A DNA stretch of 64,000 nucleotides from Escherichia coli. GTDB taxonomy: Bacteria > Pseudomonadota > Gammaproteobacteria > Enterobacterales > Enterobacteriaceae. The stretch is taken from the NCBI RefSeq assembly GCF_011045215.1, contig NZ_CP049202.1. The stretch is one strand, 5' to 3'. Both the position numbers and the translations under genes were made by a program. A model generated the notes under the pieces. That model was not told where the DNA came from. It did no database searches and saw only the letters and a program-made list of their open reading frames with translations. Within the stretch, counting starts at the first letter, position 1, and every line of letters begins with the position of its first letter. This document shows positions 37,199 through 46,000 of this stretch, piece after piece.

Positions 37199-37582
37199 TT
37201 ATTCATCATCATTTTTTGGAAAGAACCTTTCCATCTCAACCGACACCTTCTCTCTGATATCTTCAACCATATTGGCATATTCAAACTTCGGGTTTCCGGA
37301 AACATGAGGGCTAAGAGACTCAATACCTAAAATCTTTGCCACTGTTGACTGCGTTTTTACAACACATTCAAGAAGAAGTTTATTAAACTCTGCCTGATTA
37401 AATGCTGATTCTTTTCGTTCCATCTGCGCTTCATAAACTCGCAATCCTAACTCAAGCAACATAGAGGCAATACTTGAATAACTAACATCTTTCTCTTTTG
37501 CTCCCTCTGCTCGCCTCTGCACAGCAATAGCATTTATTTTTTCAGACACATGGTCATTAACATAAACCTGAATTTTGGCCAT
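37199..37582 (-). CDS. traM: TraM relaxosome accessory protein (127 aa)
   Basis: Translation matches remembered TraM (MAKIQVYVNDHV...), 127 aa. Confidence 0.92.
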   Translation of the reverse strand: MAKIQVYVNDHVSEKINAIAVQRRAEGAKEKDVSYSSIASMLLELGLRVYEAQMERKESAFNQAEFNKLLLECVVKTQSTVAKILGIESLSPHVSGNPKFEYANMVEDIREKVSVEMERFFPKNDDE

Positions 37583-37900: not shown

Positions 37901-38000
37901 AACTTGTTTTTGCGTGGGGTGTGGTGCTTTTGGTGGTGAGAACCACCAACCTGTTGAGCCTTTTTGTGGAGTGGGTTAAATTATTTACGGATAAAGTCAC
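37900..38000 (+). other. oriT core; F-type nic site in GCGTGGGGTGT/GGTGCT (nick at about 37922/37923), plus-strand is the transferred strand
   Basis: Sequence TTTTTGCGTGGGGTGTGGTGCTTTTGGTGGTGAGAACCACCAACCTGTTGAGCC matches the F oriT nic region as remembered, including the GGTGGTGAGAACCACC inverted repeat. Confidence 0.8.
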
Positions 38001-38013
38001 CAGAGGTGGAAAA

Positions 38014-38523
38014 ATGAAAAAATGGATGTTAGCCATCTGCCTGATGTTTATAAATGAGATCTGCCATGCCAATGATTGCTTTGATCTTTCAGGCCGGGAT
38101 TACAAAATAGATCCTGATTTACTGAGAGCAATATCATGGAAAGAATCCCGTTACCGGGTTAATGCCATCGGTATTAATCCGGTAACGGGATATGGCAGCG
38201 GACTGATGCAGGTAGATTCCCAGCATTTTAACGAACTGGCCCGCTATGGAATTAATCCGGAACATCTGACAACAGATCCCTGCATGAACATTTATACCGG
38301 TGCTTATTATCTGGCAATAGCCTTTAAAAAATGGGGCGTCTCCTGGGAGGCCGTTGGTGCATACAATGCCGGATTCAGGAAGACCGAACGCCAGAACCAG
38401 AGACGTCTTGCCTACGCATCAGATGTTTACCGGATTTATACCGGGATAAAAAGCAGTAAAGGTATCCGGATTCCGGCCACGAAGAAATCACTTCCGGAAA
38501 TTAACAGCGTGCAGAACAATTAA
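38014..38523 (+). CDS. orf169 / gene X-type lytic transglycosylase (169 aa, signal peptide)
   Basis: Signal peptide and lytic-transglycosylase-like core; first leading-region gene beside oriT as in F; ATG with GAGGTGG RBS. Confidence 0.85.
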
Positions 38524-38768: not shown

Positions 38769-38821
38769 TGATAATATAAGTAAAGCCCCGAAAATTTTTC
38801 GGGGCTTTACTTATATTATCA
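38769..38821. terminator. Perfect 26-bp inverted repeat with 1-nt spacer; GC stem flanked by A/T runs, probable bidirectional terminator between convergent genes
   Basis: TGATAATATAAGTAAAGCCCCGAAAA-T-TTTTCGGGGCTTTACTTATATTATCA read directly from the sequence. Confidence 0.6.
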
Positions 38822-38941
38822 TGACTTCCACTTTCTGAACTGTTCGGCAATCACCCATAACGCCTTGTTGATTCTTATATCACCATCAATACCTGTAATG
38901 GCTCTTGTCCTAGTATTTTTCCCGGAGGCACTTTGCCCCGA

Positions 38942-39640
38942 TCATCCACCTTTTATCATATTCTCCTGAACCCGCTGCCAGGTTGTCCAGAGATCGTTCT
39001 GTTTATCCTCCCAACGATGGGGAGTAATTATCTGTTCAGGCGTCACTGGCGTTTTATTTTCATCTTCATACCTGACCATCAGTGCAGCTCTGCTAAATAA
39101 ATGTTGCTCGTCACTGTTAAGATGAATTTCTTTCATCGCCTCCATATTATCAGTGACCTTATCAAAGATACCGAGTACTTCATACGCTCCCTCGATAACC
39201 TGCTCGACAATATCACCTTTATGTGGAACGCGGATTTCGCCAAAATTATTTCCGCACACCAGGCCATTTGTGCAGACAAAACGAAAAATTCCGGGGATCA
39301 TCTGATAACTGGATGAACCATCATGTGAATTAAGCAGGATAATTTCAGGAACTTCCTGCCCGTTAATATGCCCTTCCCTGCGAAGACGTAACATATGTTT
39401 ACTGTATTCGCGACGTCCCAAATCACGAACCCGACTCTGACAGGCAAAGAATGGCTGGAAACCTTCATCACGTAACTTATTGATGATATTGATTGTTGGA
39501 ATATACGTATAACGTTCACTCCGGGACTCATGTTTATCACCGGAAAATACCGAAGGCACGAACTGCATTAATTCATCATCCGTTAAAGGACGTTCACGGC
39601 GGATGGAATTATACCGACCAAAACGGGAAGCTAATCGCAT
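38942..39640 (-). CDS. DUF932-family leading-region protein (orf273-like), possibly C-terminally truncated
   Basis: MRLASRFGRYNSIRRERPLTDDELMQF... resembles the conserved DUF932 protein next to orf169 in F-like leading regions; ATG at 39640 with AGGAG RBS; appears shorter than remembered homologues. Confidence 0.5.
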   Translation of the reverse strand: MRLASRFGRYNSIRRERPLTDDELMQFVPSVFSGDKHESRSERYTYIPTINIINKLRDEGFQPFFACQSRVRDLGRREYSKHMLRLRREGHINGQEVPEIILLNSHDGSSSYQMIPGIFRFVCTNGLVCGNNFGEIRVPHKGDIVEQVIEGAYEVLGIFDKVTDNMEAMKEIHLNSDEQHLFSRAALMVRYEDENKTPVTPEQIITPHRWEDKQNDLWTTWQRVQENMIKGG

Positions 39641-39758: not shown

Positions 39759-40045
39759 TCAGCAGATCGCCCGGATATCGAGGCCGGCACGCTTAATCTG
39801 ACGCAGGAACTGTTTGAAGTGATCGGCTTCCGCAATGTTGATATGGCGGAACTGCGTATCCACACCCCGGCTGAGCGCGTAGCTATAGCTGAAGGCCATC
39901 TTTTCCGGGTGGCTTTTGCGATATTTTTTCAGCTCAGTCAGGCTGCTGAATTCTAGGACGTCCCACTCTTCCCCGGTGTTTTTTTCTTCCCGGCAACAAG
40001 AAGCGTGTACGACGCGGTGTTAACGTGGATATTTCGGGTACTCAT
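39759..40045 (-). pseudogene. Hypothetical leading-region gene (about 95 aa) interrupted by a frameshift at an A7 homopolymer
   Basis: ATG at 40045 with AGAGGAG RBS; reading frame breaks at GGGAAGAAAAAAACACC and resumes in another frame through to a stop; span is not a multiple of three. Confidence 0.4.
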
Positions 40046-40057
40046 CCTGCTTTCTCC

Positions 40058-40620
40058 TCTCTCTGGTTTTCAGCCCCCATCATCTTTTGAGTTTCGGGAG
40101 CCGCGGTTTTGACGTTTTGCGGGGACCTGCCTTTTGTTCCCTCCGGTATTCACCATCATCTTTTTGAGAACCTTCGCCGCAAGGGGCATCACTGCCACGG
40201 CCGGAAACGACTGTCCGGGGGCAGACCGCAAAAGTTTTTGCCTGCTTCTGGGCAAAAACTTTTGCGGGATGTGCATTTCACCCCTGGACTGGCGGAGACG
40301 GTTGTGGCTGTATCAGCCCCCGGCGACAGGGGATTAAACAGGTGAATGGCACCGGACAGAACAACGGGCAGGGACCCGCCGCAGCGACGTGAAGCGCGGT
40401 TTGCGAAACGGCGTTGCCCCTTACATCCCGGCGGCCTTTTGCCGGGATGCCGGGAGCGCAGGCCACGGCGCGACAGAGGCGGCGCGACCGGAACGGTCGC
40501 TGCAAGCCCGGGGTTTCGCGTCAGGGATGGAAGCCCGCCAGGGCGGAGACAGCTTCGCTGGCTCCGTTCACGACAGCCCGCCCCGCCAGGGGGACGCCCG
40601 GAAAAGGCATAAGCAGGAGA
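40058..40620. repeat. Frpo/ssi-like GC-rich structured element, copy 1 of a roughly 0.55-kb direct repeat
   Basis: Near-identical sequence recurs at ~45456..46000; contains internal inverted repeats (CCGCAAAAGTTTTTGCC...GGCAAAAACTTTTGCGG); lies upstream of a minus-strand leading gene. Confidence 0.55.
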
Positions 40621-41376: not shown

Positions 41377-42096
41377 TCACGCTGCCTCCCGGAGTTTGTT
41401 CGGCACCATCCACCGCTCCATCTCACGGACAGCGTGACCGGCCTCTCTTGCTGCAAGACTGGCTTCCGCAATAACCTGCCAGAACGGCATATCCTGCCAC
41501 TGCCAGCGTTCCATTCCGGACAGTGACGGAAAACGCTCGCCCCACTGCCAGAACAGGGTTTCCAGGTCATGCTCTGCCACCCGGTCACTCCAGCGTGCAT
41601 GCCAGCTTCCGACTGTTTCCGGCGAATGGAATGCCAGTTCGATTTCAGCCTGAGCGACCAGCTCCTGGTACGCACGGGCTTTCTGCTCTGCCTCCCGTGC
41701 CTGCTGGCGGCTGTACTTCTGCATGACCAGCGCGGATTTATGGCGACTGCGCTCCCTGACACGAAACCGCACCGACGGAAACAACCGCTCTGCTGCATCA
41801 CCGGGAAGGGGAAGGAGGCAGACCTCGCCCTGTATTTCAATCAGCACATCGATGACATACAGCCACTGAAGACGGTTGCCGTGCAGTTCTTCTGCGGTCA
41901 GGGACGGCATGAAAAATCGCAGGTCAGACAGCGATATCCTGCGGCTTCCGTTCAGACAGCGGAAAAACGCCCCCGCATACGGATATTCCGCCAGCGTGTT
42001 ACCCTGATGGCGGCGTTTTTCTGTCTCCGCCACCGCCCGCCATGCGGCCTGTTGCTCTGTGCTGAGCGGAACCAGTGCCTGTGAACGTACGCTCAT
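41377..42096 (-). CDS. psiA: PsiA (239 aa)
   Basis: 239 aa directly downstream of psiB; sequence as remembered for F PsiA. Confidence 0.9.
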
Positions 42097-45455: not shown

Positions 45456-46000
45456 TTGATGTTTTCAGCCCCCATCATCTTTTGAGTTTCAGGAGCCGCG
45501 GTTTGACGTTTTGCGGGGACCTGCCTTTTGTTCCCTCCGGTATTCACCATCACCTTTTTGAGAACCTTCGCCGCAAGGGGCATCACTGCCACGGCCGGAA
45601 ACGACTGTCCGGGGGCAGACCGCAAAAGTTTTTGCCTGCTTCTGGGCAAAAACTTTTGCGGGATGTGCATTTCACCCCTGGACTGGCGGAGACGGTTGTG
45701 GCTGTATCAGCCCCCGGCGACAGGGGATTAAACAGGTGAATGGCACCGGACAGAACAACGGGCAGGGCCCCGCCGCAACGACGGAGAGCGCGTGCGCGAA
45801 ACGGCGTTGCCCCTTACATCCCGGCGGCCTTTTGTCGGGATGCCGGGAGCGCAGGCCACGGCGCGACAGAGGCGGCGCGACCGGAACGGTCGCTGCAAGC
45901 CAGGGTTTCGCGTCAGGGATAGAAGCCCGCCAGGGCGGAGACAGCTCCGCTGGCTCCGTTCACGACAGCCCGCCCCGCCCCGCCAGGGGGACGCCCGGAA
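45456..46000. repeat. Frpo/ssi-like GC-rich structured element, copy 2 (direct repeat of ~40058..40620), immediately upstream of ssb
   Basis: Near-identical to copy 1 by eye with scattered substitutions and small indels. Confidence 0.55.

What the first reader, a model, noticed from the sequence alone, without database searches (positions are those of the whole stretch)
39759..40045. Leading-region gene interrupted at an A7 homopolymer directly downstream of Frpo-like copy 1
A gene with an excellent RBS and ATG loses frame at GAAGAAAAAAACACC and continues in another frame to a stop, so a one-base tract-length change would restore a ~95-aa protein. This is either a sequencing error, gene decay, or a slippage-controlled early gene.
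Basis: seen in the sequence. Interest (0 to 1): 0.35.

Follow-up and report, generated by a model that had tools for sequence, protein, structure and literature searches.

The report
Frameshifted ygeA pseudogene on F-like plasmid
This is a broken copy of ygeA, the first gene switched on when an F-type plasmid enters a new cell: one A has been lost from a run of eight, the same lesion recurs in about 5-6% of related plasmids, and it is already flagged as a pseudogene in public annotations, so the finding is real but ordinary.

Summary
On the minus strand an AGGAG ribosome-binding site and ATG (40045) open a gene that goes out of frame at an A7 run (T7 on +, 39979-39985). It stops after 30 codons, and the -1 frame continues to TGA at 39759.

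The gene is ygeA (yubO, orf95) of the F plasmid, the first gene behind the single-stranded promoter Frpo1. F has A8 and an intact 95-aa protein. Apart from the lost A, the window differs from F by one synonymous base within the gene.

It is not a sequencing error. The closest public plasmids (99.3-99.4% identical) carry the same A7, as does pO103, and NCBI annotates the gene there as 'frameshifted'. The truncated products are indexed in about 2,300 blocks of the assembly collection.

Among 2,573 plasmid records, 1,634 match A8 exactly, 140 match A7 and about 8 match A9. One-base slips occur on at least 14 haplotype backgrounds, so the run is a recurrent mutational hotspot. The run is not conserved, which argues against a designed switch.

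The next gene, ygeB (DUF932), carries a nonsense mutation here. In my sample all seven independent ygeB lesions sit on frameshifted-ygeA backgrounds, and none on about 55 intact ones. Verdict: genuine gene decay, low novelty.

The parts
39759..40045 (-). ygeA (yubO / orf95) pseudogene: 287 nt instead of 288, homologous over its full length to the F plasmid gene
   Evidence: Alignment with F, F128, pRmtB1 and pECSF1. F translation is 95 aa. UniProt name YubO. ygeA lies downstream of Frpo1 in F.
39979..39985 (-). A7 run (T7 on the + strand). The intact F-type allele has A8 (AAG AAA AAA AAC = K K K N). This is the site of the 1-bp deletion.
39953..40045 (-). Residual N-terminal reading frame of 30 codons plus TAG. 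It keeps only residues 1-22 of YgeA and lacks the conserved domain.
39954..39954 (-). Private G-to-A change (CTG to CTA, synonymous in the original frame). It creates the TAG that ends the shifted frame; relatives read on to a TGA 5 codons later.
39759..39899 (-). Residual C-terminal frame (46 aa from an internal ATG), corresponding to residues 50-95 of YgeA.
   Evidence: The same 46-aa product is called on 301 contigs.
40054..40058 (-). Shine-Dalgarno AGGAG, 8 nt upstream of the ATG.
   Evidence: Read from the sequence.
40108..40587 (+). Frpo1-like single-stranded-DNA promoter region. It is a direct repeat of 45502-45979 (Frpo2-like, 96-98% identity, 5.39 kb away). The + strand, which I infer to be the transferred strand, forms a long hairpin.
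   Evidence: Frpo1 lies upstream of ygeA/ygeB and Frpo2 is about 5 kb away in F.
38819..39640 (-). ygeB (DUF932, orf273 homologue), second gene of the operon. It is 822 nt with no indels but has TTA-to-TGA at codon 233 (38942-38944), giving 232 aa instead of 273.
   Evidence: The same gene is flagged 'internal stop' in the closest relatives.

Best explanation
The locus is ygeA (also called yubO or orf95). It is the first gene of the two-gene operon ygeA-ygeB that the single-stranded-DNA promoter Frpo1 transcribes when an F-like plasmid enters a recipient. In this plasmid ygeA is a genuine, inherited loss-of-function allele. One A has been lost from a coding A8 run (AAG AAA AAA AAC). Ribosomes therefore leave the frame after Lys22 and stop at codon 31, and the conserved 70-residue C-terminal domain (EEWDV...ADHFKQF...) is not made.

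The run is a replication-slippage hotspot, so the same kind of one-base slip has arisen many times in F-like plasmids and is present in about 5-6% of sequenced copies.

Shown: the lesion, its inheritance, its recurrence, and the nonsense mutation in the neighbouring ygeB. Inferred: once ygeA is dead, ygeB loses its selective value or becomes harmful, so it decays secondarily. In this plasmid the whole Frpo1 operon is therefore non-functional, while the tra operon and the Frpo2 operon (ParB-like gene, psiB, psiA) have full-length reading frames.
For: 1. Identity. The gene is 99.7% identical to F ygeA over 288 nt, with the same neighbours (Frpo-like repeat, DUF932 gene, SLT gene X, traM).

2. 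Not an error. The closest public plasmids, NZ_CP159135.1 and NZ_CP076260.1 (99.3-99.4%), have the same A7, and PGAP labels the gene 'frameshifted'. pO103 has it too. The truncated products are indexed in 1,828 and 453 blocks of the assembly collection, against 21,635 and 16,012 for the two commonest intact proteins. Long tra reading frames are open, including one of 1,756 aa that I take to be traI.

3. Frequency. Exact-match counts in 2,573 plasmid records are A8 1,634, A7 140 and A9 about 8-13. In RefSeq E. coli genomes 87 of 2,492 records have A7.

4. Recurrence. There are three molecularly distinct one-base-deletion alleles (GAAG-A7, GAGG-A7, GAGGG-A6) plus A9. They sit on at least 14 haplotype clusters, some 1-4 SNPs from intact alleles.

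5. Decay. Changes private to frameshifted alleles hit conserved YgeA residues (V30I, A74V, R82C, K40*), whereas changes private to intact alleles are mostly synonymous.

6. ygeB. There are seven independent ygeB lesions: stops at codons 183, 221, 225 and 233, a 4-bp deletion, a 1-bp deletion and a truncation. All are on frameshifted-ygeA backgrounds (13 of 38 loci). None occurs in 24 intact-ygeA loci or in about 31 further plasmid rows (Fisher p = 2e-6 on raw loci). Within the window's own clade ygeB has 9 variable sites: 3 nonsense, 6 non-synonymous and 0 synonymous (P of 3 or more nonsense = 0.006).

7. Agreement with experiment in F. Deleting ygeA drops conjugation to 3.9% against 92.6% for wild type, deleting Frpo1 plus ygeAB gives 32.7%, and deletion of ygeB alone could not be made (PMC9849209).
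Against: About two thirds of the frameshifted copies I sampled still have an intact ygeB. The link to ygeB is therefore not obligatory, and at the level of haplotype clusters it is only suggestive (4 of 14 against 0 of 9).

My sample is enriched for frameshifted copies and is not phylogenetically corrected. Some sporadic A7 or A9 records in long-read assemblies may be base-calling errors: L010, L013 and L061 clearly are low-quality assemblies.

Apart from the lost A, the window's ygeA carries only one further change, so the lesion may be young. A low level of rescue by RNA-polymerase or ribosome slippage on A7 cannot be excluded from sequence alone. If ygeA is as important as the F experiments suggest, its loss from apparently transfer-proficient plasmids is unexpected.
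Confidence: 0.85

Rival explanations
1. Sequencing or assembly error: the real plasmid has A8, and the A7 is a homopolymer miscall in this record.
For: Homopolymer undercalls are common in long-read and 454 assemblies. Two loci I fetched (L010, L013) are riddled with such deletions, and L061 probably is too. A7 outnumbers A9 by about ten to one, the direction expected for undercalling.
Against: The same A7 is present in the closest relatives, which come from China and Nigeria, in pO103, and in many NCBI draft assemblies. The window differs from its relatives by only two other 1-bp indels in 6 kb. It has 24 A7 runs and its long tra reading frames are open. The neighbouring gene is hit by a base substitution, not an indel.
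Confidence: 0.04
2. Slippage-controlled early gene. Either the A run is a phase-variable (contingency) switch, or the A7 allele is decoded through transcriptional slippage or -1 ribosomal frameshifting, so that YgeA is still made at a tuned level.
For: A7, A8 and A9 all occur on one and the same haplotype cluster, and frameshifted and intact alleles can differ by 1-4 SNPs in 1.3-1.6 kb, so the run does switch repeatedly. The frame needed is -1, which adding one A to the mRNA or a -1 slip on AAA AAA would supply. One contig carries a compensating +1 insertion 36 nt upstream that restores the frame. Most frameshifted copies have no further damage in ygeA.
Against: The run is not conserved. The second commonest allele reads A6-T-A (KKKY) and another reads GGG-A7 (REKN), and distant homologues vary in this segment. 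About 94% of copies are in frame. Eight A is short for a mononucleotide contingency tract, and seven A is short for efficient RNA-polymerase slippage (my own knowledge). G AAA AAA is not a canonical X XXY YYZ slippery site. Frameshifted lineages show damage at conserved residues, including a stop in the old frame (K40*), and lose ygeB. Lys-Lys-Lys-Asn encoded with the preferred AAA codon gives such a run by chance.
Confidence: 0.07
3. The short products are the genuine proteins here: either the 30-aa N-terminal peptide or the 46-aa C-terminal fragment is a functional shorter form of YgeA.
For: Gene callers annotate the 46-aa and 65-aa C-terminal fragments on hundreds to over a thousand contigs.
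Against: The 46-aa frame has no recognisable ribosome-binding context of its own. It lacks the invariant EEWDV-EF-L-LKK half of the domain and, in the predicted structure, two of the four strands. In the window the 65-aa form would need a CTG start that has been mutated to CTA. The N-terminal 22 residues are the least conserved part of the family. PGAP treats the locus as a pseudogene.
Confidence: 0.03

Closest known systems
ygeA (yubO, orf95) of the E. coli F plasmid, NC_002483.1 64032-64319, WP_000107542.1
   Same: Apart from the lost A there is one synonymous base difference within the gene. Same position behind Frpo1 and ahead of ygeB (DUF932), gene X (SLT), oriT and traM. Same ribosome-binding site and start. 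In F the gene is expressed transiently from single-stranded DNA on entry, and its deletion lowers conjugation about 24-fold (PMC9849209).
   Different: F has A8 and an intact 95-codon frame. The window has A7 and makes at most 22 native residues.
Annotated pseudogenes in NZ_CP159135.1 (ABU963_RS00265), NZ_CP076260.1 (A7A20_RS23410) and pO103 NC_013354.1 (ECO103_RS28400)
   Same: Identical GAAG-A7 frameshift, labelled 'hypothetical protein, frameshifted'. The adjacent DUF932 gene is also a pseudogene.
   Different: The ygeB lesion differs. The window has only the stop at codon 233, NZ_CP076260.1 only the stop at 221, NZ_CP159135.1 both, and pO103 a 4-bp deletion. The window alone has the CTA change that shortens the shifted frame to 30 codons.
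Mononucleotide-repeat contingency loci of Haemophilus, Neisseria, Campylobacter and Helicobacter (my own knowledge of the literature)
   Same: On/off state set by one-base slips in a coding homopolymer. Both lengthened and shortened alleles are found among close relatives.
   Different: The run is short (8). It is not conserved across alleles and is explained by codon choice for Lys-Lys-Lys-Asn. Off alleles accumulate secondary damage rather than switching back.
Rescue of poly(A) frameshifts by transcriptional slippage, as in Buchnera genes and Thermus dnaX (my own knowledge of the literature)
   Same: A frameshift inside an A run that adding one A to the transcript would correct.
   Different: Those cases use runs of about 9 or more A. 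Here the run is 7, and nothing in the sequence data points to maintained function.

Membership tests
F-plasmid ygeA / yubO / orf95 gene | Sequence homology over the whole gene | tested here: met
   287 of 288 positions align with F ygeA, with one substitution and one deleted A. The restored translation equals WP_000107542.1.
F-plasmid ygeA / yubO / orf95 gene | Position: first gene downstream of Frpo1, followed by ygeB (DUF932), then gene X (SLT), oriT and traM | tested here: met
   Frpo-like repeat at 40108-40587, DUF932 gene at 38819-39640, SLT gene at 37921-38523, and a 127-aa frame at 37199-37582 matching the traM position.
F-plasmid ygeA / yubO / orf95 gene | Uninterrupted reading frame of about 95 codons encoding the conserved C-terminal domain | tested here: not met
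   The frame is lost after codon 22, with a stop at codon 31. The locus is therefore a pseudogene of this gene, not a functional member.
F-plasmid ygeA / yubO / orf95 gene | Transient expression from single-stranded DNA on entry into the recipient | not testable with these tools
   Only the hairpin-forming potential of the upstream element could be checked.
Frameshift pseudogene (gene decay) | Intact orthologues exist and are the majority state | tested here: met
   1,634 exact A8 records against 140 A7. Intact products are indexed in about 37,600 blocks against about 2,300 for truncated ones.
Frameshift pseudogene (gene decay) | The lesion is real, meaning it is present in independent assemblies | tested here: met
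Frameshift pseudogene (gene decay) | Relaxed constraint or further damage after the lesion | tested here: inconclusive
   Changes private to frameshifted alleles include V30I, A74V, R82C and K40*, against mostly synonymous changes on intact alleles. The numbers are small, and the window itself has only one extra, synonymous change.
Phase-variable contingency locus | Repeat-length variation among very close relatives, in both directions | tested here: met
   A7 and A9 occur in one haplotype cluster. A7, A9 and intact A8 occur in another.
Phase-variable contingency locus | Repeat tract maintained by selection across alleles and homologues | tested here: not met
   The A6-T-A and GGG-A7 alleles are common, and distant homologues vary at this segment.
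Phase-variable contingency locus | Reversible switching at high rate within one strain | not testable with these tools
   Needs fluctuation tests or deep sequencing of one culture.
Programmed -1 ribosomal frameshift or transcriptional slippage site | Canonical slippery heptamer X XXY YYZ in the zero frame, or a run of about 9 or more A/T | tested here: not met
   The zero frame reads AAG AAA AAA ACA, so the heptamer would be G AAA AAA, and the run is 7.
Programmed -1 ribosomal frameshift or transcriptional slippage site | The two-frame arrangement is conserved in homologues | tested here: not met
   About 94% of copies and all distant homologues are single-frame.
Programmed -1 ribosomal frameshift or transcriptional slippage site | Downstream stimulatory RNA structure | not tested
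   Not examined, because the other two criteria already failed.

The most novel reading that the evidence does not exclude
The A run in ygeA is a functional slippage site. Either polymerase or ribosome slippage on A7 still yields a small amount of full-length YgeA, or frequent A8/A7/A9 switching acts as a population-level on/off switch. In this way F-like plasmids would tune the YgeA:YgeB ratio at entry, and the repeated loss of ygeB in 'off' lineages would reveal a toxin/antidote-like dependence between the two proteins of the Frpo1 operon.
Probability: 0.07. Interest if true: 0.6.

Novelty: already known. Interest (0 to 1): 0.27.

Why it matters
Taken alone, this is an ordinary, already annotated pseudogene.

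Its context gives it some value. ygeA and ygeB are uncharacterised, yet in F they are the leading-region genes whose loss most reduces conjugation (PMC9849209). Public sequences show three things:

- About 5-6% of F-like plasmids carry a dead ygeA, created again and again at one A run.
- Many of these plasmids keep what looks like a complete transfer operon.
- In my sample ygeB is inactivated only where ygeA is already dead.

This is the pattern expected if the value or harmlessness of one protein depends on the other. It matches the odd genetics reported for F, where the double deletion is milder than deleting ygeA alone and ygeB could not be deleted alone. It offers a cheap natural-variation route to the function of this operon. 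It also warns that leading-region gene content cannot be read from annotation alone.

Tried and rejected
1. Family assignment of YgeA. Pfam, NCBIfam and PHROGs gave nothing; the only Pfam hit had E = 0.2. PADLOC was not run. Some database entries call partial copies 'DUF905', but the Pfam scan did not support that.

3. Source of the window. No record in the plasmid or E. coli genome collections is identical; the best match is 99.4%.

4. Unbiased list of truncated YgeB proteins. A homology search failed to provide one, because truncated forms are hidden inside the large 90%-identity clusters.

5. Literature. DUF932 has no characterised plasmid function in the papers held. I found no paper mentioning natural ygeA frameshifts.

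6. General decay of the leading region. I rejected this: psiA (239 aa), psiB, the ParB-like gene and the tra genes have full-length reading frames in the window. The 'frameshifted' psiA flag in relatives appears without any indel relative to the window and is probably an annotation matter.

7. Excluded loci. L010, L013 and L061 were left out as low-quality assemblies with many homopolymer deletions.

Full report
**What is in the sequence**

The gene lies on the minus strand. An AGGAG at 40054-40058 sits 8 nt before ATG 40043-40045. Frame 0 reads MSTRNIHVNTASYTLLVAGKKK, passes through GAAG-AAAAAAA-CACC, and stops at TAG 39953-39955 after 30 codons. The run is exactly seven A, which is T7 on the + strand at 39979-39985. 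The -1 frame is open across the run and reads ...EEKNTGEEWDVLEFSSLTELKKYRKSHPEKMAFSYSYALSRGVDTQFRHINIAEADHFKQFLRQIKRAGLDIRAIC, ending at TGA 39759-39761. A7 runs are not rare in the window: there are 24, against 8.7 expected from shuffles. The signal is the frame break, not the run.

**Identity of the gene**

A search of 72,556 plasmid records found the 401-nt segment in 3,233 records, almost all conjugative F-type plasmids of Escherichia, Salmonella, Klebsiella and Shigella. In F (NC_002483.1 64032-64319) and F128 the same segment is an intact 288-nt gene encoding the 95-aa 'hypothetical protein' WP_000107542.1. UniProt calls this protein YubO. The alignment shows one difference that matters: F, F128 and pRmtB1 have eight A, while the window has seven.

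In recent work on F the gene is called ygeA (PMC9849209). According to that paper:

- It is the first gene downstream of the single-stranded-DNA promoter Frpo1, followed by ygeB.
- It is produced transiently while the incoming plasmid is still single-stranded, and this depends on Frpo1.
- Deleting it lowers the transconjugant frequency to 3.9%, against 92.6% for wild type.
- Deleting Frpo1 gives 25%, and deleting Frpo1 with ygeAB gives 32.7%.
- ygeB alone could not be deleted.

In the window the upstream element 40108-40587 is repeated at 45502-45979 (96-98% identity, 5.39 kb away). This matches the Frpo1/Frpo2 pair described for F. The + strand folds into a long hairpin (-94.6 kcal/mol, z = -8). 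I infer the + strand to be the transferred strand, because it runs 5' to 3' from the oriT side into the leading region and is the template of these genes.

The protein has no Pfam, NCBIfam or PHROG family. Its homologues are confined to Enterobacterales plasmids, with identities from 51% to 99%. The conserved part is the C-terminal roughly 70 residues (EEWDV-EF-L-LKK...ADHFKQF-R-I), and the N-terminal segment is variable. The predicted fold (pLDDT 78) has no informative structural neighbour. The frameshift removes the whole conserved domain.

**Error or real?**

The allele is real, for three reasons.

- The closest public plasmids are NZ_CP159135.1 (China) and NZ_CP076260.1 (Nigeria), 99.3-99.4% identical over 6 kb. 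Both carry the same A7, and NCBI's pipeline labels the gene 'hypothetical protein, frameshifted'. pO103 of E. coli O103:H2 strain 12009 has it as well.
- Over those 6 kb the window differs from its relatives mainly by substitutions and by only two other 1-bp indels. Its long tra reading frames are open.
- The truncated products that gene callers make from frameshifted copies are indexed in 1,828 blocks (65 aa) and 453 blocks (46 aa) of the assembly collection. Most contigs shown for them are NCBI draft assemblies. The two commonest intact proteins are indexed in 21,635 and 16,012 blocks. That is about 5.7% frameshifted.

Exact-match counting with 91-93-nt probes in the plasmid collection gave A8 1,634, A7 140 and A9 about 8-13, out of 2,573 records. 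In complete RefSeq E. coli genomes 87 of 2,492 records have A7.

**A recurrent hotspot, not a designed switch**

I aligned 65 fetched loci over the Frpo1-ygeA-ygeB segment. There are three different one-base-deletion alleles: GAAG-A7 (as in the window), GAGG-A7 and GAGGG-A6. In addition there is the A9 insertion allele. Frameshifted alleles fall into at least 14 haplotype clusters at a 6-SNP threshold. Some are 1-4 SNPs from intact alleles, and one cluster holds both A7 and A9. The run therefore slips repeatedly.

The run is not conserved, however. The second commonest intact allele reads AAG AAA AAA TAC (A6), another reads AGG GAA AAA AAC, and distant homologues vary in this segment. Lys-Lys-Lys-Asn with the preferred AAA codon gives such a run without any selection for it. 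The zero frame offers no canonical slippery heptamer, and seven A is short for efficient transcriptional slippage (my own knowledge).

Changes private to frameshifted alleles hit conserved residues (V30I, A74V, R82C) and include a stop in the old frame (K40*). Changes private to intact alleles are mostly synonymous (small numbers). One contig carries a compensating +1 insertion 36 nt upstream that restores the frame. This is a single case, in a lineage whose ygeB is already broken.

**The neighbouring gene**

ygeB (DUF932, 38819-39640) has no indel in the window but carries TTA-to-TGA at codon 233. The same gene is broken differently in related plasmids:

- TGG-to-TAG at codon 221 (L006, L007, L019, L026)
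- CAG-to-TAG at codon 225 (pSTEC1018_5, L001)
- a 4-bp deletion (pO103 type)
- a 1-bp deletion (a JGI metagenome contig, L016)
- a truncation (L023)
- a stop at codon 183 (E. albertii pEA32_1)

All seven independent lesions are on frameshifted-ygeA backgrounds: 13 of 38 good-quality frameshifted loci. None occurs in 24 intact-ygeA loci or in about 31 further full-length rows of an evenly spaced sample of plasmid hits (Fisher p = 2e-6 on raw loci). By haplotype cluster the contrast is only 4 of 14 against 0 of 9.

Within the window's own clade every member has the frameshift, while ygeB is intact in two members (L025, L028) and hit by three different stops in the others. The frameshift therefore came first. 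The nine variable ygeB sites in that clade are 3 nonsense, 6 non-synonymous and 0 synonymous. The probability of three or more nonsense changes by chance is 0.006.

Many other frameshifted lineages keep ygeB intact. These include all six A9 plasmids, and many lie only a few SNPs from intact alleles.

**Interpretation**

Shown: a genuine, inherited, recurrent one-base deletion has inactivated ygeA, and ygeB is also inactivated in this plasmid.

Inferred: selection on ygeB depends on ygeA. Either the two proteins work together, so that ygeB is useless once ygeA is lost. Or one protein is harmful without the other, so that ygeB loss is tolerated or favoured only after ygeA loss. Both versions agree with the F experiments, in which each single deletion behaved worse than the double deletion.

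Premature termination in ygeA might also lower ygeB expression through polarity. That is speculation.

The rest of the plasmid does not look decayed. psiA, psiB, the ParB-like gene and the tra genes have full-length reading frames.

**Verdict**

This is an ordinary, already annotated frameshift pseudogene of a known but uncharacterised gene. The by-products are of modest interest and would need a full, phylogeny-aware survey and simple genetics to confirm. These are the hotspot behaviour of the A run, its roughly 6% frequency in F-like plasmids, and the confinement of ygeB lesions to ygeA-null backgrounds.

Noticed in passing
window 38942-38944 (within ygeB, 38819-39640, minus strand): The DUF932 gene ygeB has a TTA-to-TGA nonsense mutation at codon 233. 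Close relatives carry different stops at codons 221 and 225, so three independent stops fall within 13 codons and remove only the last 40-52 residues.
   Followed up: yes
window 38943 and 38979, compared with L006, L007 and L025: All four combinations of the two ygeB stop alleles (codon 221 TAG or TGG, codon 233 TGA or TTA) occur among plasmids that differ by 6 SNPs or fewer. This implies recombination between them or recurrent mutation.
   Followed up: partly
window 40108-40587 and 45502-45979: A direct repeat of about 480 nt (96-98% identity) 5.39 kb apart, corresponding to Frpo1 and Frpo2. It brackets the hok-type toxin, psiA, psiB and the ParB-like gene.
   Followed up: partly
window 40070-40276, minus strand: A 68-aa reading frame lies between the hairpin-forming Frpo1 region and ygeA, partly overlapping the hairpin. 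Public records annotate it as 'hypothetical protein' (for example WP_040101106.1). It has no Pfam family and may be a spurious call.
   Followed up: partly
L049 737-1024 (Logan SRR29869000, protein P0065): A pO103-type copy with the A7 frameshift also has a +1 A insertion (GTTAAC to GTTAAAC) 36 nt upstream. This restores the frame, giving a 95-aa protein with 15 altered residues. Its ygeB still has the 4-bp deletion.
   Followed up: yes
L039-L048 (protein P0034): The second most common intact ygeA allele reads AAG AAA AAA TAC (Asn23 to Tyr). This shortens the run to six A, so it should be less prone to slippage. No frameshifted copy of this allele was seen in my sample.
   Followed up: partly
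window 37151 and 37758 (oriT / traM side): The only other indels between the window and its closest relatives are two 1-bp differences. One of them is in an A run (A7 here, A8 in the relatives) in the non-coding region between traM and gene X.
   Followed up: no
L006 4837-5599 and L007 4837-5599 (psiA); window 41377-42096: PGAP flags psiA as 'frameshifted' in the closest relatives. The window has a full 239-aa psiA frame and no indel relative to those relatives, and psiA is missing from the PLSDB gene table of F itself. This is probably an annotation artefact.
   Followed up: partly
L060 (E. albertii pEA32_1, NZ_CP117601.1): This is the most decayed copy seen. It has the A7 frameshift plus a stop at old-frame codon 40 of ygeA, and a stop at codon 183 of ygeB.
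   Followed up: yes
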